A stretch of DNA of 64,000 bases. It comes from Methanobacteriota archaeon (GTDB lineage Archaea; JAADCQ01; Methanopyri; Methanopyrales; Methanopyraceae). This document shows, piece by piece, positions 43,679-54,122 of the stretch (position 1 is its first letter; the number at the start of each line of letters is the position of its first letter). The translations under genes and the position numbers were made by a program. The notes under the pieces are model-generated. The model was not told the DNA's origin. It saw only the letters and a program-made list of their open reading frames with translations, and did not search any database. The stretch lies in NCBI GenBank assembly GCA_027064425.1, contig JAMOPO010000052.1, forward strand, positions 128,001 to 192,000. Direction: 5' to 3'.

Positions 43679-43897
43679 GTGAAGCTGAGCGAGCGGCCCC
43701 CGAGGGAGCTCTCAGAGCTGCTTCAAGATCACGGTCTTACGGTGCGGGACGACGGTCGGACCGTGCTCATCCGTGGGTCCAAGGACGATCTGCTGGAGGC
43801 CCTGCTGAACGTCCCACCGAAGCTGTCCATGTCTTCCCGAAAAGTCATCAAAGAGCTGTGGAGGGCGCTGGGAGCGGACCGACCGCGGCTCCGCTAG
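43679..43897 (+). CDS. Small hypothetical protein
   Basis: GTG immediately after the CBS gene stop. Confidence 0.5.
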   Translation: MKLSERPPRELSELLQDHGLTVRDDGRTVLIRGSKDDLLEALLNVPPKLSMSSRKVIKELWRALGADRPRLR

Positions 43898-44781
43898 AAC
43901 ACCGAGTAGCTACCCTTCACCACCGAATTGTCCACCAGGAAGACCCGCTGCCGGCCCCCCATGTTGGACATCCAGAGCCAGAGCTCAACGCTGCCGCTCT
44001 TGGCGTGTTCCGGCAGGACCATCGCGGGCACCGTTCGACCCTCGAAGTTCACCGTCCGGCTCCCGATCTTCTCCTCGCCCGGGCCCAGCAGGGTGACGCT
44101 CACCCTACCCAGCTGTACCGTAAGCTGCTCTAGCACCAGACAGCCTCTGGCCCCCGTCTCCTTCAGCGCCCGCTCGATCTGCCGCTTGACCTCCACGTGC
44201 TTCCCGTCGCTAACGTTGCACAGGACCCGCCCGATCACCGCGTTGTATCGGACTTTAACGTCCGGACCGTCCATGACCCGGCGGCCGAGCTCCCGCCTAA
44301 CCGCCTCCTTCACGCGCTTCGCGTCGGGCTTGCCGTCGTACGAGGCCTGGAACATGAACACGGATCCCTTGATTACCACGCTCCGCTGCGCCATCACCTT
44401 GTCCTTCAGCGCCTTCTCCACGTCCTTCCTGGCCTGATTGGGGTCCATCGTGATCGGCACCAGGGCGTCAACGATCACGACCTCCTGGCCGGCCAGCTTC
44501 GTTTTCTGCGCGGAGACTCTCTCCACGCCCTCGACGCCCTCCACCACCTTCTTCAGGTCCCGCTCCGACACCCCGGGCTTAGGTACGGTCAGGACCCGGA
44601 CGATCGACACCTGATAGTCGCGCACGATCCTCGCCTTCACGACGCCCTCCGCCGCGGCCACCTGGGTCGCCTGCCCGGTGAGGGTGAACGTGGGGATGGC
44701 GGACAGAACCATCATCGCGGCCAGGAACAGGATGCCGCCCACCACGATCGTGCGTCGGTGTCGGCGAATCCAGTCGAACAC
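43894..44781 (-). CDS. Hypothetical membrane-anchored protein with repeated ferredoxin-like modules
   Basis: N-terminal basic stretch plus TM; repeated beta-alpha units. Confidence 0.65.
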   Translation of the reverse strand: MFDWIRRHRRTIVVGGILFLAAMMVLSAIPTFTLTGQATQVAAAEGVVKARIVRDYQVSIVRVLTVPKPGVSERDLKKVVEGVEGVERVSAQKTKLAGQEVVIVDALVPITMDPNQARKDVEKALKDKVMAQRSVVIKGSVFMFQASYDGKPDAKRVKEAVRRELGRRVMDGPDVKVRYNAVIGRVLCNVSDGKHVEVKRQIERALKETGARGCLVLEQLTVQLGRVSVTLLGPGEEKIGSRTVNFEGRTVPAMVLPEHAKSGSVELWLWMSNMGGRQRVFLVDNSVVKGSYSVF

Positions 44782-44784
44782 GGC

Positions 44785-45339
44785 TCACTCCCCCGCGCGC
44801 TCCATGAGCATCTCCAGGTAGGACTTCCGGATCCGCTCGCCCTCGGCCCCCAGCTCCTCCGCCAGCCGACGGAGGTCCTTCTCCGCCCGCTCAATCTCGG
44901 AGCGGTCCTTCACGGAGCACTCCAGCTCCAGGAACGTCCCCAACCCCTCGACCTCGTCCAGCGTCACCTCAACCTCCCGTCCCGCGAACTTCACCCGGTA
45001 CACCTCCCGTCGTTTCTTAACCTTCACCCGCTCCAGCGGCTCGAACCCTAGTTTTCGCAAAATTTTGTCCATGGCCCCGAAGTCCTCCACCTCGACCTCC
45101 ACCTCCTCCCGGGACTTCTCCTCCCCCACCCGGGGCCCCTTGTACGTCAGGACGGTCCGATCGCCCGCCCGGCGCAGGCGTAGCGCCTCGTCCGTCTCCC
45201 CGAAGTCCCTGCACGGGTGCTGGTAGTACAGGTCCACCTGCTCCACCTCGCCCTCAGGCTCGCCCATCTCCCGGAGCCTCTCCCTGACCTCCTCCGGGTT
45301 CTCGACCGCTATCTTCACCTCCACCTCGAACACGCCCAC
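44785..45339 (-). CDS. cyaB: CYTH-domain protein (class IV adenylate cyclase-like / triphosphatase)
   Basis: EVEVK, DLYY, ALRLR, LTYKGP, KKRR, LDEVEGLGTFLELE, SYLE. Confidence 0.92.
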   Translation of the reverse strand: MGVFEVEVKIAVENPEEVRERLREMGEPEGEVEQVDLYYQHPCRDFGETDEALRLRRAGDRTVLTYKGPRVGEEKSREEVEVEVEDFGAMDKILRKLGFEPLERVKVKKRREVYRVKFAGREVEVTLDEVEGLGTFLELECSVKDRSEIERAEKDLRRLAEELGAEGERIRKSYLEMLMERAGE

Positions 45340-46498: not shown

Positions 46499-46523
46499 GG
46501 CCGACCCCTCCCGGGGCCGGGTG

Positions 46524-46853
46524 ATGGGGTGGGAGCTGAGGGTCGAGCGGCGCTGGGATGAGACCGTCTGCGGTCGGGTCCGGGAGCTGTACTCCAACGA
46601 GGACTTCTCACTAGCGGAGGTCGTGGTGGATGGGGAGGGTGAGGAGCACTACCACGAGCGGACTCTGGAGGTCTATTACGTGCTCGAGGGGCGCGGTCGC
46701 GTTCACGTGAACGGGCGCCCCGTGGACGTGCGGCCTGGGGACGTGATCGTCCTGGAACCTGGGGTAAGGCATAAGGTGGAGGGCAAGCTCAGGCTCCTCG
46801 TCGCGTGCTCGCCCCCGTTCGATCCGGACGACGTGCACGTGGAGGAGGGATGA
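46524..46853 (+). CDS. Cupin-domain protein
   Basis: HYHERTLEVYYVLEGRG, PGDVI...PGVRH. Confidence 0.88.
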   Translation: MGWELRVERRWDETVCGRVRELYSNEDFSLAEVVVDGEGEEHYHERTLEVYYVLEGRGRVHVNGRPVDVRPGDVIVLEPGVRHKVEGKLRLLVACSPPFDPDDVHVEEG

Positions 46854-46884: not shown

Positions 46885-47187
46885 GTGATGGAACGGGTGA
46901 GCTGCCTGACCTCCCGGGTTCGAGTCATCCTGCGGCTCCGGGTACCGGAGGAGGTGATCCGATCCCTCGACCCGGACTCGGACCCCTGGTGCTCCGTGCG
47001 CGACCGAACGATCCGGATTCGAGGGGACGGGTTCGGGCCCGTGAAGCACGCCACCGACGACGTGCTCCGGTGCGTGAAGGCTGGCCTGTCGGCGGTGAGG
47101 GTGGCGGAGGATGCAGCCGCTGACGAGGAGGAACAAGGACGAGCACCCGGCCGTGACCGATCCGGACACGACGATCATCCTGGGTGA
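46885..47187 (+). CDS. Pcc1-like (KEOPS subunit) small protein
   Basis: SLDPD...IRIRGD....KHATDDVLR.VK pattern; start uncertain. Confidence 0.4.
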   Translation: MMERVSCLTSRVRVILRLRVPEEVIRSLDPDSDPWCSVRDRTIRIRGDGFGPVKHATDDVLRCVKAGLSAVRVAEDAAADEEEQGRAPGRDRSGHDDHPG

Positions 47188-47818
47188 CGTTCAGGCGACC
47201 CCGGACTGCGTGATCGGCGAGCGCGTCCGGCTGGGTCCCGACGTGGAGATGCGCGGGGCGTTGATCTCCGGGGAGTCCGTGGTCTACAACTCGGAGCTCG
47301 AGGGGTGCGCGGTGGGCAAGAGGACGACCGTCACGGGCCGGGTTTCGGAGGGCGTCACGATCCACCACGGCTCCGTCCTCGGGCAGCTGAAGGTCAGTGG
47401 GGACATCGAACCCCCCGTCATCGGGTCCGGAGCCTTCGTGGGACCGGGGGTCTCTCTGCTTCCCGGCACCGAGGTGGGCGAGGAGGCCGTGCTCCTCCCG
47501 AACAGCGTGGTGACCGAGCGCGTCCCCCGCCGCGGCGTGGTGGGCGGGAACCCCGCGATGCCTCGCGGCGTGGTCGTGGACGTGGAGCGGGTGGAGGTCG
47601 AGTTCGACGGATCGGAGTTCGAGGTCGAGGGACGCCGGGGGCGCGCCTTCGATCTCAGGCTAACTGACGGCGGGCTGGAGGTCGAGGAGGACCGCCCCCA
47701 CGAGTTCGGGGTGATCGCCGAGAAGCGGCCGAGGATCGTCCGGCTGGGACACGCGATCGAGCTGCCGCGGCGGCCCTTCACCTTCCCCCTCTACGTGCTC
47801 CAGCTGAAGACCAAGTAG
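47111..47818 (+). CDS. Left-handed beta-helix (hexapeptide repeat) acyltransferase-like protein
   Basis: VIGERVRLG, PVIGSGAFVGPGVSLLPG.EVGEEA....SVVT..VP....GGNPA. Confidence 0.8.
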   Translation: MQPLTRRNKDEHPAVTDPDTTIILGDVQATPDCVIGERVRLGPDVEMRGALISGESVVYNSELEGCAVGKRTTVTGRVSEGVTIHHGSVLGQLKVSGDIEPPVIGSGAFVGPGVSLLPGTEVGEEAVLLPNSVVTERVPRRGVVGGNPAMPRGVVVDVERVEVEFDGSEFEVEGRRGRAFDLRLTDGGLEVEEDRPHEFGVIAEKRPRIVRLGHAIELPRRPFTFPLYVLQLKTK

Positions 47819-47829
47819 GGGGACCGCCG

Positions 47830-48435
47830 GTGCCCGTCCGCGACTCGGTCCTCATTGACACGGAGGTGGAGGAGGGCCTGGTCATTGGGAGCGTCCTGGA
47901 GGGTTGCGAGGTTCGGAGGGCGGCGGTCGTAGGAACCGTGGCCCACGGGGAGCGGTTCGAGGGGACGGTGGTGGTCGGCGGACGGCCCACCGACGGTGAG
48001 GTGACGGTTGTTCCCGTCCGCGCCGGTGAGTGGGGGGCCGCGTCCGGCGAGGACGAGGTGAGCGTCCCGGACTCGGACGGTGAGGACGTTCTCGCGATCG
48101 TGGCGGACGTGAGCGCGATGGGGCTGCTCCGCGATCTCCTGAAGATCGAGCCGCGACGGGTGGGGCACCACGCTCTCTTCACGTTCTCGGGCTCGCTGCC
48201 GGCCCGGCTCAGGAGGCGCCTGGTGGGGAACCTGGACCTGTTCCGGGAGTGCTGCCCGTGCGCCTACCTGCGAGTTAGCGGCACCGTCATCGCTTTCCGG
48301 GGCGGCAAGCAGGTCTTCGATGAGCCCGGGGAGGTCGAGTATCGGGACGTGCTGGTCGTGCGGGACGGCAGGCCGGTGCTGTCGGCCTGGAAGGCGGCGA
48401 CGAAGAGCGTGATCTCCGAGCTGGGGGCCGGGTGA
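47830..48435 (+). CDS. Hypothetical protein; N-terminal beta-helix-like repeats, possible CitD/MdcC-like carrier segment
   Basis: GAASGEDEV (Ser72) and GSLPARLRRRL about 50 aa apart; GTGA-coupled to the citG-like gene. Confidence 0.55.
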   Translation: MPVRDSVLIDTEVEEGLVIGSVLEGCEVRRAAVVGTVAHGERFEGTVVVGGRPTDGEVTVVPVRAGEWGAASGEDEVSVPDSDGEDVLAIVADVSAMGLLRDLLKIEPRRVGHHALFTFSGSLPARLRRRLVGNLDLFRECCPCAYLRVSGTVIAFRGGKQVFDEPGEVEYRDVLVVRDGRPVLSAWKAATKSVISELGAG

Positions 48436-49346
48436 CTCGCGTGGCCGGTCTCCGCGAGCTCCCGGACCTCTTCTGTCGGGCCGTCGTGGTGGAGGTCCTG
48501 TCGGGCCCGAAGCCGGGGCTCGTGGATCCCGTCTCACCGAGCCCGCACCGGGACATGGGGCCCGGCGAGTTCTTCTCCTGTCTTCCCGAGCTGAACCGGT
48601 GCCTGCGCGAGGCACTGGAGCTGGGGCTAGACCGCGAGCCGGTGGAAGAGGTCGTGGATCTGATCCCCGCCTGGAACGTGGACGTGCTGACGGCGTCCTC
48701 CGGCCCGAACTCCGTGCGCGGGGTGCTGTTCCTGGGCGCCGTGTACTGCTACTCGGCCGGGTGGGAGGGGGACGTCTTCCCGTTCTCTCGGATCCGCGAG
48801 GTCGGGAGGCTCTGCGCGGAGAAGCTGTGGGACAGGACGGAGACGAAGTGCGGTCGAAGGCGAGTCCGAGAGGGATTAGCGGGAATCTTCGGCGAGGCGG
48901 CGTCCGGGCTTATGACCGCGAGGACGGTGTCGTTGTCCACCCTGGTCTCGGTGCTGCGCCGGGGCGGAACGCTTGAGGAGGCCGTCGTGCAGTCGGTCCT
49001 GGCCTGCATGTCCGTTCTGGAGGACGCCGGGCTCCCCCCGCGGACGCGGGAGTGGGTGAGGCGAAGGTCCCGCGAGGTGTTGGAGATGGGAGGGGTGTTG
49101 ACCCGGCGGGGTCGGGAGGAGCTCTGGTCCTTTGTGGAGGAGTGCGCACGGAGGGAGGTCAGCCCGGGCGCGTCGGGGGACGTGACGATCGTTGGGCTCG
49201 TGCTGCTCTTCCTCCGGTGGGGGAGGGACCTTTCCTCCCCGTATCTTGATCCTCCGGGACGGTGGGGTCGGGGAGCAGGTGGGGAGGACCGTTCGGGTCC
49301 TGGTGCGCGGGGACGGGACGCGGGTCGTGGCCTCTCGAGGGGATAG
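48432..49346 (+). CDS. citG: Triphosphoribosyl-dephospho-CoA synthase (CitG/MdcB family)
   Basis: EV..GPKPGLVDP....HRDM, NSVRGVLF, GIFGEAASG, SPGASGD. Confidence 0.85.
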   Translation: MTRVAGLRELPDLFCRAVVVEVLSGPKPGLVDPVSPSPHRDMGPGEFFSCLPELNRCLREALELGLDREPVEEVVDLIPAWNVDVLTASSGPNSVRGVLFLGAVYCYSAGWEGDVFPFSRIREVGRLCAEKLWDRTETKCGRRRVREGLAGIFGEAASGLMTARTVSLSTLVSVLRRGGTLEEAVVQSVLACMSVLEDAGLPPRTREWVRRRSREVLEMGGVLTRRGREELWSFVEECARREVSPGASGDVTIVGLVLLFLRWGRDLSSPYLDPPGRWGRGAGGEDRSGPGARGRDAGRGLSRG

Positions 49347-49863
49347 GAAGTTTTTTAAGCGAAGCGAGGTCGGGGTCGAGCGAGAGTTAACGCCGTGGGA
49401 GGCCTACCGGGAGATTTGTACCCGGCTGGAGCTTAACTCGCTGGAACCTCCCGAGGACGTCGGGCACCCGGTCGACCCCGAGACGGGGTACCGGGTGCTG
49501 GAGCTCCTGGACCTGTTATGGCGGTCCGGGATCGAGGGGCTGGGCGTAACCGGCACGGTGGGCTGCGCGGCACCCCTCCACGACCTTACGGTGGGGAATC
49601 CGGTCGGGTGGACGAGCCTCCGGGTGGCGAACCCCGGCTCCGACCTCGACTTAATAATCAGGGAGAAGGGAACTCTACGGGAGCTCCTGAACCTGGGCTT
49701 TAGAGTCGTCAGGCGACGGGGTGACGGGGCGCTCCTGTCCCCGGAGCGGGTCACGGGTTTCCGTACTCCTCTACTCGACGTGAGGTGGGGGTGCGACGTT
49801 GGCGGACGACCTGGACAGCCTCCTGCCGAAGACCTCAGAGAGCACCAGCCTGAGCACCCTTAA
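49279..49863 (+). CDS. MdcG-like phosphoribosyl-dephospho-CoA transferase (nucleotidyltransferase fold)
   Basis: GLGVTGTVG...GSDLDLIIR; upstream RG...R...TPWE; start uncertain. Confidence 0.6.
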
Positions 49864-52784: not shown

Positions 52785-54122
52785 ATGCGCGTGGTGGTCG
52801 TCGGCGGAGGGGCGGCCGGCATCACCGCCGCCCGAACCGCCCGGGAGCTGGGCGCGGAGGTCACGCTGATCACCGAGGACGATCGAGTCGCGTACTCCCC
52901 CTGCGCCATCCCGTTCGTTCTTTCGGGTGAGATCGAGGACGCCGATTCCATCGTCATGCGAGACCCGGAGTACTACGAGCGGCTGGGCATCAACCTGAGG
53001 CTCGAGACGAGGGTTGAGGAGGTGGACCCGGAGGAGGGGATCGTTGAGACCGAGGACGAGACGTTCGAGTTCGACGCGGCGGTCCTGGCCGTGGGTGGGG
53101 AGCCACTGATCCCTCCCATCGAGGGGTCGGACCTCGACGGCGTCCTCACCGTCCGCTGGTTCTCGGACATCGAGCGGCTGGAGCGGGCCGTTCAGTCCGC
53201 CGAGCGGGCGGTGGTGGTCGGGGCCGGCCCCATCGGCGTTGAGATGGCGCACGCGCTGCGCAGCCGCGGGCTCGAAGTAACCCTGGTCGAGATGCTGGAT
53301 CGAGTCCTCCCCCAGCTGCTGGACGGCGACACCGCCGCGGAGCTGCAAGAGGTGATGGAGAAGGAGGGCGTCCGGGTCCTGCTGGGCGACCCCGTCGAGA
53401 GGATCGAGGGCGACGAGTCGGTGGAGGCGGTGGTGGTGGGCGGCGAGGAGATCGAGGCGGATCTCGTGGTCATGGCGGCGGGGGTTCGTCCTCGAACCGA
53501 GCTCTTTGAGGCGATGGGCGCCTCGGTTACCCCGTTCGGCGTCGAGGTTGACCCGGCCCTCCGGGTCAAGTCCGAGGATGGGGGCGTCATGGAGGGCGTT
53601 TACGCGGCCGGAGACTGCGTGGCCGACTGGTGCCCGATCACCGGAGAAACCGTGCCCAGCCAGCTCGGGACGGTGGCCGTGCGTCAGGGCCGCATCGCCG
53701 GCAGGAACGCCGTCGAGGGGCCGAAGATCACCTGGCCCGGGACGCTCAACACCGCGGTGGTCTGCGCGTTCGGTCTGGAGGCGGCCGGGTGCGGTCTCAC
53801 GGAGGCCAGGGCTGAGGAGGTCGGGATGGAGGTGGTCTCGGCGACCGTCAGCACGACGACTCGGGCCCGGTACTACCCGGGCGGTGAGGAGATCACGGTG
53901 AAGCTCATCGCCGACGCTTACACCCACCGGATCGTGGGCGCGCAGGCGGTGGGGGGAGAGCGGGTCAGGGAGCGCGTGGACGCGATCGCGCTGGCGATCC
54001 GGCTGGGAGCGAAGGTGGAGGACCTCCTATCGTGGGACTACTCGTACTCGCCCCCGGTCGCCCGGGTGGTGGAACCCTTCTACGAGGCCGCGGAGCGGCT
54101 CCGGGAGGAGCTCAAGGGATGA
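52785..54122 (+). CDS. NADH oxidase / CoA-disulfide reductase-family flavoprotein
   Basis: GGGAAG, single redox Cys YSPCAIP, GAGPIG.E, YAAGDC, YSPP. Confidence 0.9.
   Translation: MRVVVVGGGAAGITAARTARELGAEVTLITEDDRVAYSPCAIPFVLSGEIEDADSIVMRDPEYYERLGINLRLETRVEEVDPEEGIVETEDETFEFDAAVLAVGGEPLIPPIEGSDLDGVLTVRWFSDIERLERAVQSAERAVVVGAGPIGVEMAHALRSRGLEVTLVEMLDRVLPQLLDGDTAAELQEVMEKEGVRVLLGDPVERIEGDESVEAVVVGGEEIEADLVVMAAGVRPRTELFEAMGASVTPFGVEVDPALRVKSEDGGVMEGVYAAGDCVADWCPITGETVPSQLGTVAVRQGRIAGRNAVEGPKITWPGTLNTAVVCAFGLEAAGCGLTEARAEEVGMEVVSATVSTTTRARYYPGGEEITVKLIADAYTHRIVGAQAVGGERVRERVDAIALAIRLGAKVEDLLSWDYSYSPPVARVVEPFYEAAERLREELKG

What the first reader, a model, noticed from the sequence alone, without database searches (positions are those of the whole stretch)
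47111..49863. Orphan phosphoribosyl-dephospho-CoA (CitG/MdcB + MdcG) protein-modification system in a methanogen
Seen: a tightly coupled run of hexapeptide acyltransferase (47111), unknown ORF (47830), CitG/MdcB-family gene (48432) and an overlapping ORF with GLGVTGTVG...SDLDLIIR. Established: in bacteria CitG/MdcB makes triphosphoribosyl-dephospho-CoA and MdcG (G-V-T-G-S-x-G...S-D-L-D-L) or CitX transfers it to a Ser of the acyl carrier subunit of malonate decarboxylase or citrate lyase. This CitG has bacterial-style motifs (KPGLVD, HxDM, GEAxxG, SPGxSxD) rather than the KPGNV/NPGTTAD style I recall for stand-alone archaeal homologues. No MdcA/D/E or CitE/F genes are in the window. Inference: a complete synthase-plus-transferase pair builds a holo-carrier for a different, undescribed pathway, with the beta-helix enzyme as candidate acyl loader.
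Basis: partly seen in the sequence, partly recalled or inferred. Interest (0 to 1): 0.85.

Follow-up and report, generated by a model that had tools for sequence, protein, structure and literature searches.

The report
Orphan CitG-like plus nucleotidyltransferase gene module
All known Methanopyrus-type methanogens carry a tight gene cluster that pairs a second, bacterial-looking copy of the enzyme that makes the CoA-derived prosthetic group of citrate lyase and malonate decarboxylase with three or four lineage-only proteins, although the genome has no such enzyme to receive the group, so the target is unknown.

Summary
Window 46885-49863 (+) carries five tightly packed or overlapping genes:
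- a small orphan ORF
- a hexapeptide (LbH) acyltransferase
- an orphan protein with an invariant RECCPCA motif
- a CitG-family gene (Pfam CitG, 109.9 bits)
- an orphan protein with GTVG...GSDLDL

The last four are syntenic in 4 of 4 congeneric loci examined, and the orphan-protein searches found orf2 and orf4 in all 6 genomes of the lineage. The genes are under purifying selection (dN/dS 0.17-0.24 against the closest relative).

The genome also holds the canonical archaeal CitG elsewhere. The window copy is a lineage-only second paralogue that scores better against bacterial MdcB than against archaeal CitG. It has lost a universal R-x-G loop.

No citrate-lyase or malonate-decarboxylase carrier, CitX, MdcA or CitF was found genome-wide.

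The last ORF is not a demonstrable MdcG. The Pfam MdcG model fails, and hhalign gives 19%, no better than MdcG against generic nucleotidyltransferases (33%). A low-confidence model points to a Pol-beta nucleotidyltransferase fold.

A small-molecule or cofactor pathway is a serious rival.

This scan had noted this same stretch, and CitG-like/nucleotidyltransferase pairs in other archaea, before.

The parts
46885..47187 (+). Small conserved orphan ORF (about 75-100 aa). Its 3' end overlaps the start of the hexapeptide gene by 77 nt. C36, K54 and C63 are invariant; no Ser is invariant.
   Evidence: tblastn finds it in 4 of 4 congeneric loci at 43-80% identity, with no paralogue in the own genome. 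dN/dS is 0.16-0.50. Alignment A7. No Pfam or NCBIfam family at E up to 10. It is not the Pcc1 that I first suspected from memory: the true Pcc1 match is on another contig. hhalign against MdcC gives 1.6%.
47111..47818 (+). Left-handed beta-helix (hexapeptide) acyltransferase, 235 aa. It has an invariant N-terminus PLTRRNK..HPAV.DPD and a poorly conserved C-terminal extension of about 85 aa.
   Evidence: Pfam Hexapep, E 2.3e-14. NCBIfam best matches are Vat, WbbJ and CysE types, all far below their cut-offs. The profile hits solved CoA-dependent acetyltransferases: DapH, maltose/galactoside O-acetyltransferase, Vat and serine acetyltransferase, E 1e-10 to 1e-7. Alignment A5.
47830..48435 (+). 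Orphan 201-aa protein (orf2). The N-terminal 60 residues or so have hexapeptide-like periodicity. The C-terminal domain has an invariant RECCPCA motif. Also invariant: C26, H114, S72-G73, S120.
   Evidence: No Pfam, NCBIfam or PADLOC family. Only lineage homologues appear among 5.8 billion clusters. Present in 6 of 6 lineage genomes. In 295 other archaeal genomes there are only two borderline 15-bit hits. Alignment A3. The AlphaFold2 model failed, pLDDT 33.9.
48432..49346 (+). citG2: a divergent, bacterial-type member of the CitG/MdcB family (ATP:dephospho-CoA triphosphoribosyl transferase family), 304 aa. The domain ends near residue 258.
   Evidence: Pfam CitG, 109.9 bits. NCBIfam MdcB 88.9 bits and CitG 79.6 bits, against cut-offs of 282 and 272. 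It is the second copy in 6 of 6 lineage genomes and in 0 of 35 other archaea. Tree and scores. Column analysis.
49279..49863 (+). orf4: an orphan protein of about 175-194 aa, probably with a Pol-beta-type nucleotidyltransferase fold. Invariant G92-T93-V94-G95, S121-D122-x-D124 and D149. Invariant acidic N-terminal motif EPPED.G.PVDPE.G. The start is taken as the GTG at 49279. The unconserved C-terminal tail overlaps the PAN gene.
   Evidence: Alignment A1. Only 6 homologues among 5.8 billion clusters. Only 3 representatives among 1.84 billion in an exhaustive profile search. Foldseek and VIA-align both rank Pol-beta nucleotidyltransferases first, on a model with pLDDT 54.9. hhalign against MdcG 19%, generic nucleotidyltransferases 3.9%, CitX-CitG 0.5%.

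Best explanation
This is a lineage-restricted five-gene module built around a CitG-type enzyme and an overlapping nucleotidyltransferase-fold enzyme. It works like the MdcB/MdcG or CitG/CitX pair but on an unknown acceptor.

Proposed steps:
1. citG2 uses ATP to put a 5-triphosphoribosyl group on a ribose hydroxyl of a nucleotide-type thiol cofactor, most likely 3'-dephospho-CoA, releasing adenine. This is inferred from family membership and bacterial-type signature residues.
2. orf4 uses its G-T...D-x-D...D centre to attack the alpha-phosphate of that triphosphate with a hydroxyl of the acceptor. It releases pyrophosphate and leaves a phosphodiester-linked phosphoribosyl-dephospho-CoA. This is inferred from the probable fold, the catalytic motif and translational coupling to citG2.
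3. The acceptor is most likely a protein of the module. orf2 is the first candidate, with invariant Ser72-Gly73 and Ser120 and four invariant Cys. This is pure inference.
4. The beta-helix acyltransferase loads or uses an acyl group on the new thiol. This is inferred from its family only.

Shown here: the genes, their conservation and selection, the family of citG2 and of the beta-helix protein, and the absence of known carriers and of the classical enzymes.

Not shown: any activity, any binding, or the nature of the acceptor.
For: - citG2 is a CitG-family member well above the Pfam cut-off.
- In 6 of 6 orthologues it keeps the residues universal to bacterial and archaeal CitG: E21, P26-K-P-G29, V31, D41, F47, N93, G97, E155, D198, P245 and D250.
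- It carries bacterial-only signature residues.
- It scores higher against true MdcB, whose genes sit next to mdcG, mdcC, mdcD, mdcE and mdcH, than against archaeal CitG.
- A bacterial MdcB queried against the whole genome hits citG2, not the canonical copy: 30% identity over 255 aa, E 6e-17.
- orf4 overlaps citG2 in 4 of 4 related loci and is under purifying selection, dN/dS 0.17.
- orf4 has an invariant G-T-V-G ... S-D-x-D-L ... D pattern.
- Its model matches Pol-beta nucleotidyltransferases first in two independent fold searches. ANT(2'')-Ia is the best Foldseek hit, E 7.8e-3. The top five VIA rows are TUT7, TUT1 (two entries), Cid1 and CutA, Z 6.5-6.8.
- The known partners of CitG and MdcB are enzymes of that fold (MdcG and CitX; recalled knowledge). 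In the bacterial loci fetched here, mdcG abuts mdcB.
- The canonical archaeal CitG is kept as well in all 6 genomes, so citG2 is an added function and not a replacement.
Against: - orf4 cannot be tied to MdcG or CitX by sequence. Its weak likeness to MdcG is no greater than that of MdcG to unrelated nucleotidyltransferases.
- The orf4 model is poor (pLDDT 54.9; residues 91-120, between the motifs, are below 50) and no fold match reaches E 0.001 or Z 8.
- citG2 has deleted the R-x-G loop after D198 that all 16 bacterial and 18 archaeal comparison sequences keep. It has also replaced a bacterial E (N82), an H/N (V95) and an R (F/L153), so its substrate or chemistry may differ.
- It is far below both NCBIfam equivalog cut-offs.
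- No CitD/MdcC-type carrier exists anywhere in the genome.
- orf2 and the small ORF show no profile similarity to MdcC: 0.9% and 1.6%.
- No RNA data were available.
Confidence: 0.4

Rival explanations
1. The pair acts on a small molecule and not on a protein. citG2 ribosyl-triphosphorylates a cofactor or metabolite. orf4 couples the product to another small molecule through a phosphodiester. The beta-helix enzyme acylates the product. The module would then make or decorate a lineage-specific coenzyme, a methanopterin-type side chain, a compatible solute or a lipid head group.
For: - No protein carrier of the known type exists in the genome.
- No module protein resembles one.
- citG2 has lost the universal R-x-G loop and several bacterial residues, which fits a changed acceptor.
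- Archaea in general keep a CitG-like gene without citrate lyase: 15 of 35 other archaeal genomes searched have one copy, so non-classical roles for the family are the rule in this domain.
- Earlier unchecked notes of this scan propose CitG-like/nucleotidyltransferase pairs as methanopterin side-chain enzymes in other archaea.
- Beta-helix acyltransferases most often act on small molecules. The closest solved relatives act on sugars, amino acids and antibiotics.
Against: - The canonical archaeal CitG, the copy to which the methanopterin idea applies, is present separately in all 6 genomes.
- citG2 resembles the dephospho-CoA-specific bacterial enzymes more than the archaeal clade.
- orf4 has no detectable kinship to any other archaeal nucleotidyltransferase family in an exhaustive search.
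- Two orphan proteins without enzyme signatures (orf2 and the small ORF) are easier to explain as substrates or subunits.
Confidence: 0.3
2. The genes are neighbours without a shared pathway. orf4 is a stand-alone minimal nucleotidyltransferase that, for example, adenylylates a protein, RNA or small molecule. citG2 is a diverged paralogue with a redundant or altered role. The tight packing only reflects a compact genome with frozen synteny.
For: - The whole region from the CBS-domain gene to the glycosyltransferase is syntenic in the relatives, so conserved adjacency is not specific to these four genes.
- Only six closely related genomes exist for comparison, so co-occurrence has no statistical weight.
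- orf4 shares only the generic G-[ST]...D-x-D motif with any family.
- Overlaps also link orf4 to the unrelated PAN gene.
Against: - A second CitG paralogue and the orphan nucleotidyltransferase occur together in 6 of 6 lineage genomes and nowhere else.
- Every known CitG/MdcB enzyme needs a nucleotidyltransferase-fold partner (recalled knowledge).
- The 4-nt and 68-nt overlaps suggest coupled translation.
Confidence: 0.2
3. The two orphan ORFs, or citG2, are decaying or non-coding remnants of an old transfer from bacteria.
For: - citG2 sits on a very long branch, 2.07 substitutions per site.
- Structure prediction fails for orf2.
- These genes evolve faster than their neighbours: 55-66% identity against 81-86% for the glycosyltransferase and PAN in L013.
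Against: - Reading frames are intact in all loci examined.
- dN/dS is 0.17-0.24.
- Dozens of columns are invariant, including motif residues.
- G+C content is like that of the surroundings.
Confidence: 0.03

Closest known systems
MdcB + MdcG of bacterial malonate decarboxylase (triphosphoribosyl-dephospho-CoA synthase plus phosphoribosyl-dephospho-CoA transferase)
   Same: A CitG-family gene lies directly beside, and overlaps, a gene of about 200 aa whose nucleotidyltransferase motif sits in the C-terminal half. citG2 shares the bacterial signature residues, and its best outside-lineage matches include MdcB at 25-30% identity.
   Different: - The gene order is reversed: in the bacterial loci mdcG precedes mdcB.
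- orf4 fails the MdcG and MdcG_N models.
- The spacing between G-T and D-x-D is about 12 residues longer than in the 7 MdcG examined.
- No MdcA, C, D, E or H is found.
- citG2 lacks the R-x-G loop.
CitG + CitX of citrate lyase, including CitX-CitG fusion proteins
   Same: The same two-step logic applies. CitX-CitG fusions are among the nearest non-lineage relatives of citG2, at 25-27% identity.
   Different: No CitX, CitF or CitD-type carrier is found. hhalign of orf4 against CitX-CitG gives 0.5%.
Canonical archaeal CitG-like protein (KPGNV / NPG[ST]TAD type), function unproven
   Same: It belongs to the same Pfam family and is present in the same genome.
   Different: It forms a separate clade, split with 100% SH-aLRT support. 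It scores only 22 bits by phmmer against citG2. It sits in a different neighbourhood with no adjacent nucleotidyltransferase. It is found in 15 of 35 other archaea, whereas citG2 is found in none of them.
Minimal Pol-beta nucleotidyltransferases (MNT, ANT(2'')-Ia, terminal uridylyltransferase catalytic domains)
   Same: They share the G-[ST] ... [ST]-D-x-D motif and, probably, the fold.
   Different: Pfam NTP_transf_2 finds 7 other genes in this genome but not orf4. hhalign gives 3.9%. orf4 has a conserved N-terminal domain of about 65 residues and a long insert between the motifs.

Membership tests
CitG/MdcB (Pfam PF01874) | Match to the family model above the curated cut-off | tested here: met
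   109.9 bits against a cut-off of 27, covering model positions 3-283 of 284. 109.1 bits in the six-frame genome search.
CitG/MdcB (Pfam PF01874) | Equivalog-level match to MdcB (TIGR03132) or CitG (TIGR03125), i.e. the same function as the characterised enzymes | tested here: not met
   88.9 bits against 282.35, and 79.6 bits against 272.3.
CitG/MdcB (Pfam PF01874) | Residues invariant in both the bacterial and the archaeal clades | tested here: inconclusive
   Kept in 6 of 6 orthologues: E21, PKPG, V31, D41, F47, N93, G97, E155, D198, P245, D250. Lost in 6 of 6: the R-x-G loop after D198 and the H/N at V95. No solved structure was found by sequence to say which residues are catalytic.
CitG/MdcB (Pfam PF01874) | ATP + dephospho-CoA gives triphosphoribosyl-dephospho-CoA + adenine | not testable with these tools
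   This needs an enzyme assay.
MdcG (Pfam PF10620 + PF20866) | Match to the MdcG C-terminal and N-terminal domain models | tested here: not met
   0 of 7 orthologues are over the cut-off. MdcG gives E 0.22 in 1 of 7, and MdcG_N is not listed. The genome-wide search at E up to 10 hits only a UspA-like ORF elsewhere. Seven true MdcG score 99-122 bits with the same model.
MdcG (Pfam PF10620 + PF20866) | Profile-profile kinship beyond the superfamily motif | tested here: not met
   hhalign gives 19.4% over 22 columns. The control, MdcG against this genome's generic nucleotidyltransferases, gives 33%.
MdcG (Pfam PF10620 + PF20866) | Gene adjacent to a CitG/MdcB gene | tested here: met
   It overlaps citG2 in the window and follows it directly in 4 of 4 related loci.
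CitX (Pfam PF03802) | Match to the family model or profile | tested here: not met
   The best genome hit is E 0.15 at another locus. hhalign against CitX-CitG fusions gives 0.5%.
Pol-beta nucleotidyltransferase superfamily | Fold with the G-[GS] ... D-x-[DE] ... [DE] catalytic pattern | tested here: inconclusive
   The motif is invariant in 7 of 7. Fold searches rank the superfamily first, but at E 7.8e-3 and Z 6.8, on a model with pLDDT 54.9.
CitD/MdcC acyl carrier protein (Pfam PF06857) | A carrier of this family in the module or the genome | tested here: not met
   The only genome hit is 11.4 bits, E 0.5, inside the CYTH gene. hhalign of orf2 against MdcC gives 0.9% and of the small ORF 1.6%.
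Hexapeptide (LbH) acyltransferases (Pfam PF00132) | Hexapeptide repeats above the cut-off and likeness to CoA-dependent acetyltransferases | tested here: met
   52.8 bits against a cut-off of 27. Seventy-eight solved chains match at E up to 0.001, led by WxcM-like, DapH, maltose/galactoside acetyltransferases and Vat. No equivalog cut-off is reached, so the substrate is unknown.

The most novel reading that the evidence does not exclude
Methanopyrus-type archaea make a protein-bound, CoA-derived thiol prosthetic group, the first in Archaea. They would do so with a diverged CitG and a third, independent family of nucleotidyltransferase-fold holo-synthase. The group would be attached to a new kind of carrier, the RECCPCA protein or the small ORF, and charged by a beta-helix acyltransferase. 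Together these would form an undescribed thioester-dependent enzyme complex in a hyperthermophilic methanogen.
Probability: 0.25. Interest if true: 0.8.

Novelty: new variant of a known kind. Interest (0 to 1): 0.55.

Why it matters
The phosphoribosyl-dephospho-CoA prosthetic group is known from only two bacterial enzyme systems (my recall). Each has its own nucleotidyltransferase-type attaching enzyme.

If the leading reading is right, a third attaching family and a new acceptor would widen a very small class of protein cofactors. It would also show such a cofactor in Archaea.

If the small-molecule rival is right, the module would mark an unknown lineage-specific metabolite or coenzyme decoration in a deep-branching methanogen that grows above 100 C (recalled).

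Either way, three genes of unknown function and one loosely annotated gene in Methanopyrus genomes get a concrete, cheap biochemical test.

Tried and rejected
- **Complex prediction of orf4 (residues 1-172) with orf2:** score 0.00, verdict 'no answer'. It counts neither way.
- **AlphaFold2 of orf2:** failed, pLDDT 33.9, so no fold search was run on it.
- **ESM Atlas for orf4:** only unnamed viral clusters at 0.93-0.94, with weak hints to Poly_A_pol_cat and Aminoglyc_resit. For orf2, beta-solenoid leads at 0.76-0.78 and structure rows with TM 0.26-0.37. These are leads only.
- **PADLOC defence models:** 0 families for all four proteins.
- **Profile of orf4 against PDB sequences:** only spurious RecA-concatemer rows.
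- **phmmer of citG2 against PDB:** no CitG structure.
- **hhalign of orf2 against the hexapeptide protein:** 2%, so they are not detectable paralogues.
- **My recalled idea that the small ORF is a Pcc1:** rejected.
- **Weak Pfam ACP hit inside the CYTH gene** (E 0.011 to 0.5): taken as chance.
- **Public sequencing runs:** 6 runs listed, none recorded as RNA. No RNA holder was listed, so expression could not be examined and read laying was not used.
- **Literature:** full-text searches returned 0 papers for CitG+methanopterin, COG1767, MdcG+CitX+nucleotidyltransferase and CitG+Methanopyrus. Searches on triphosphoribosyl-dephospho-CoA with archaea or tetrahydromethanopterin returned 9 and 2 listings, none on this subject judged by title and abstract start. 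One search was swamped by an unrelated acronym.
- **Errors corrected:** searches failed on wrong coordinates and were corrected. The first dN/dS values for orf4 and PAN were out of frame and were replaced.

Full report
**What is there**

On the + strand of the window, five ORFs follow one another with almost no spacing:

| Gene | Coordinates | Length |
|---|---|---|
| small ORF | 46885-47187 | about 75-100 aa |
| hexapeptide gene | 47111-47818 | 235 aa |
| orf2 | 47830-48435 | 201 aa |
| citG2 | 48432-49346 | 304 aa |
| orf4 | 49279-49863 (frame open from 49192) | 194 aa |

The junctions are a 77-nt overlap, an 11-nt gap, a 4-nt overlap and a 68-nt overlap. orf4 in turn overlaps by 65 nt the start of a proteasome-activating-nucleotidase-type AAA ATPase gene at 49799. 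G+C content is 0.68-0.71, like the rest of the window.

**Family assignments**

- The hexapeptide protein matches Pfam Hexapep, E 2.3e-14. As a profile it matches solved CoA-dependent acetyltransferases (DapH, maltose and galactoside O-acetyltransferases, Vat, serine acetyltransferase) at E 1e-10 to 1e-7. It reaches no NCBIfam equivalog cut-off.
- From the ranges (query 66-149 on 1kqa 96-179), its invariant His85 would fall on position 115 of galactoside acetyltransferase. I recall that position as the catalytic His. I did not see this residue by residue.
- citG2 matches Pfam CitG at 109.9 bits (cut-off 27) over the whole model. It gets only 88.9 bits against the MdcB equivalog model (cut-off 282) and 79.6 bits against the CitG one (cut-off 272).
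- orf2, orf4 and the small ORF have no Pfam, NCBIfam or PADLOC family.

**Real genes, restricted to one lineage**

- Source names attached to orthologues are Methanopyrus kandleri and Methanopyrus sp..
- In 4 of 4 loci fetched from other genomes of the same GTDB genus, the order hexa-orf2-citG2-orf4-PAN is kept, with 47-88% identity for the four genes. The small ORF is also found in 4 of 4.
- dN/dS against the closest relative is 0.22, 0.24, 0.24 and 0.17 for hexa, orf2, citG2 and the non-overlapping part of orf4. For PAN and the glycosyltransferase it is 0.16 and 0.13. The orf4 and PAN rows were out of frame and are superseded.
- orf4 has only 6 homologues among 5.8 billion clusters. An exhaustive profile search of 1.84 billion representatives returned 3, all orthologues or a fragment. 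It is found in 6 of 41 genomes searched, exactly the 6 of the genus.
- orf2 has 5 cluster hits including itself. It is found in 6 of 6 genomes of the phylum-level group. Among 295 other archaeal genomes there are only two 15-bit hits at E 0.007-0.01, about what 300 searches give by chance.

**Two CitG genes**

The genome is 99.2% complete in 57 contigs and has two CitG-family genes.

- The other copy scores 251 bits. It reads KPGNVHR and NPGSTAD and lies between a membrane-phosphatase-like ORF and further ORFs, with no nucleotidyltransferase beside it.
- Of 41 genomes, the 6 of this genus have two copies, 15 of the other 35 have one, and none of the 35 has two.
- By phmmer, citG2 scores 68.5, 53.5, 52.0, 49.1, 46.4, 43.6 and 36.8 bits against seven proteobacterial MdcB. 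It scores 17-21 bits against three longer, probably fused, bacterial proteins. Against its own genome's canonical CitG it scores 22.1 bits. Against archaeal canonical CitG of other genera it scores 13-25 bits in 6 cases and lies below E 1e-3 for the rest.
- A maximum-likelihood tree of 45 rows was built from 18 archaeal canonical, 7 citG2 and 20 bacterial sequences. I left out fragments L032, L047 and L051, the TGA-interrupted L044, and redundant rows P0007-P0010, P0012 and P0021. The tree splits the archaeal canonical clade from everything else with 100% SH-aLRT. citG2 is a single clade on a 2.07 branch inside an unresolved bacterial polytomy.
- With three groups the split itself says little. 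In addition, the bacterial rows were chosen as best hits of citG2, so I rest the 'bacterial-type' call on the scores and on signature columns.
- Signature columns: citG2 has L30, M42 and F100 (6 of 6), and H39 and S244 (4 of 6). All 16 bacterial rows have the same residue in these columns, while the archaeal rows have N, T/L, L/M/I, F and N.
- Conversely, citG2 has lost features that both clades keep. The clearest is the W/H-R-G-G (bacteria) or R-K/Q-x-G (archaea) loop after D198, which is deleted in 6 of 6. It has also lost bacterial E (to N82), H (to V95) and R (to F/L153).
- So it is a true but aberrant family member.

**No classical partners**

- Genome-wide six-frame searches gave nothing above noise for the CitD/MdcC carrier (best 11.4 bits, inside the CYTH gene) or for CitX (11.6 bits elsewhere). 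MdcA and CitF gave no hit at all.
- All + strand ORFs of at least 90 aa from three bacterial mdc loci were run by tblastn against the genome. By Pfam these loci encode MdcD, MdcE, MdcG, MdcB and MdcH. They found only citG2 (with MdcB, E 6e-17) and a LysR-type match.

**Is orf4 an MdcG?**

I fetched seven true MdcG (99-122 bits on the Pfam model) that lie just upstream of mdcB in proteobacterial loci.

| Comparison (hhalign) | Probability |
|---|---|
| orf4 family vs true MdcG | 19.4% (22 columns around GSD-x-DL) |
| orf4 family vs CitX-CitG fusions | 0.5% |
| orf4 family vs seven generic nucleotidyltransferases of this genome | 3.9% |
| control: MdcG vs those generic enzymes | 33% |

- The orf4-MdcG likeness is therefore at superfamily-motif level only.
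- Pfam MdcG appears at E 0.22 in 1 of 7 orthologues, and MdcG_N not at all.
- Pfam NTP_transf_2 finds 7 other genes in the genome but not orf4.
- The AlphaFold2 model from 7 sequences is poor: pLDDT 54.9, with the segment between the two motifs below 50.
- Foldseek's first sixteen listed rows are all Pol-beta-superfamily enzymes: ANT(2'')-Ia at E 7.8e-3, then CdnD, PolX, Cid1, a TUTase and CutA. None reaches E 0.001.
- The independent VIA-align sweep of 48,161 chains puts TUT7, TUT1 (two entries), Cid1 and CutA first at Z 6.5-6.8. Glyoxalase-type half-domains follow close behind. The tool warns that Z under 8 can be a common arrangement.
- With the invariant G92-T-V-G95, S121-D-x-D124 and D149, I take a nucleotidyltransferase fold as probable, not proven.

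**The other proteins**

- orf2 has an N-terminal stretch with six short strands five residues apart in the (failed) model, and weak beta-solenoid leads in the Atlas. Its C-terminal domain has an invariant RECCPCA, plus invariant C26, H114, S72-G73 and S120.
- hhalign of orf2 against five MdcC carriers is 0.9%. The best local alignment happens to lay its A-S-G-E-D-E-V on the G-S-G-N-L-E-V of MdcC. I recall that as the site of prosthetic-group attachment, but the score is noise.
- The small ORF has no invariant Ser.

**How it most likely works**

The one strong functional clue is a CitG-family enzyme translationally coupled to a probable nucleotidyltransferase. That is the architecture of both known phosphoribosyl-dephospho-CoA systems.

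- The biochemistry of CitG/CitX and MdcB/MdcG is recalled from the work of Dimroth and colleagues. No paper was opened.
- I therefore favour (0.4) synthesis of a triphosphoribosylated nucleotide thiol by citG2 and its transfer by orf4 to a hydroxyl, with a module protein as acceptor and the beta-helix enzyme as acyl loader.
- The main rival (0.3) is the same chemistry on small molecules. Supporting it: archaeal CitG-like genes commonly exist without citrate lyase, citG2 has lost conserved substrate-side features, and earlier unchecked notes of this scan link CitG-like/nucleotidyltransferase pairs of other archaea to methanopterin side-chain synthesis.
- Against that specific version, the canonical CitG is present separately here.
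- Chance adjacency (0.2) cannot be excluded. Only six close genomes exist, and the whole neighbourhood is syntenic.

**Novelty and verdict**

I found nothing in print on this module:
- 0 papers each for CitG+methanopterin, COG1767, MdcG+CitX+nucleotidyltransferase and CitG+Methanopyrus.
- Searches listed 9 and 2 papers, none on this subject by title and abstract start.
- One search was swamped by an unrelated acronym.

Only CC-licensed PMC papers and bioRxiv were searched, and no paper was opened.

I class it as a new variant of a known kind, of moderate interest. It is a clean, testable orphan system in a deep-branching hyperthermophilic methanogen, but its central claim of a new prosthetic-group carrier rests on gene context.

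Noticed in passing
window 52785-54122 (+): A flavoprotein whose best NCBIfam match is CoA-disulfide reductase (312 bits, below the 578.8 cut-off). It lies 2.9 kb downstream on the same strand, after the PAN, GNAT-like and glycosyltransferase genes. tblastn finds it in the same place in 3 of 4 related loci; the fourth locus ends before that point. A thiol-cofactor reductase near a possible CoA-type prosthetic-group module may be coincidence.
   Followed up: partly
window 49192-49346 (+), overlap of citG2 and orf4: Both reading frames are conserved at the protein level in the window and three relatives: RWGRD..SPY.DP..RW in the citG2 frame and PRI.IL..GGV.E in the orf4 frame. The DNA here is constrained for some reason: dual coding, a ribosome-binding region for orf4, or a frameshift site. 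I cannot tell which.
   Followed up: partly
G000 contig C27:114861-115694 (locus L001:1459-2367): This is the canonical archaeal CitG-like gene (251 bits), with KPGNVHR and NPGSTAD. It is flanked by a porphobilinogen-synthase-like ORF, a small membrane ORF, an overlapping downstream ORF and an HD-domain-like ORF. I named the neighbours by eye only, not by any search.
   Followed up: no
window 44785-45339 (-): A CYTH-domain protein that passes the NCBIfam class IV adenylate cyclase (CyaB) model: 159 bits against a cut-off of 58. It lies between a conserved 295-aa orphan membrane-anchored protein (43894-44781) and a CLC-type channel gene. Synteny is kept in 4 of 4 relatives.
   Followed up: no
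window about 46520-46853 (+): A small cupin-domain gene (Cupin_2, E 2.3e-15) lies just upstream of the module. It is found only in the window and in the closest relative (L015), not in L013, L014 or L016.
   Followed up: no
window about 49345-49362 and 49645-49662 (+), inside orf4: Two short A+T-rich stretches stand out in a genome of 68% G+C. One is a T-run right after the citG2 stop. The other is TTAATAATC, in the codons of the DLDLII motif, about 150 nt before the PAN start. They could be a terminator or promoter element for PAN, or nothing at all.
   Followed up: no
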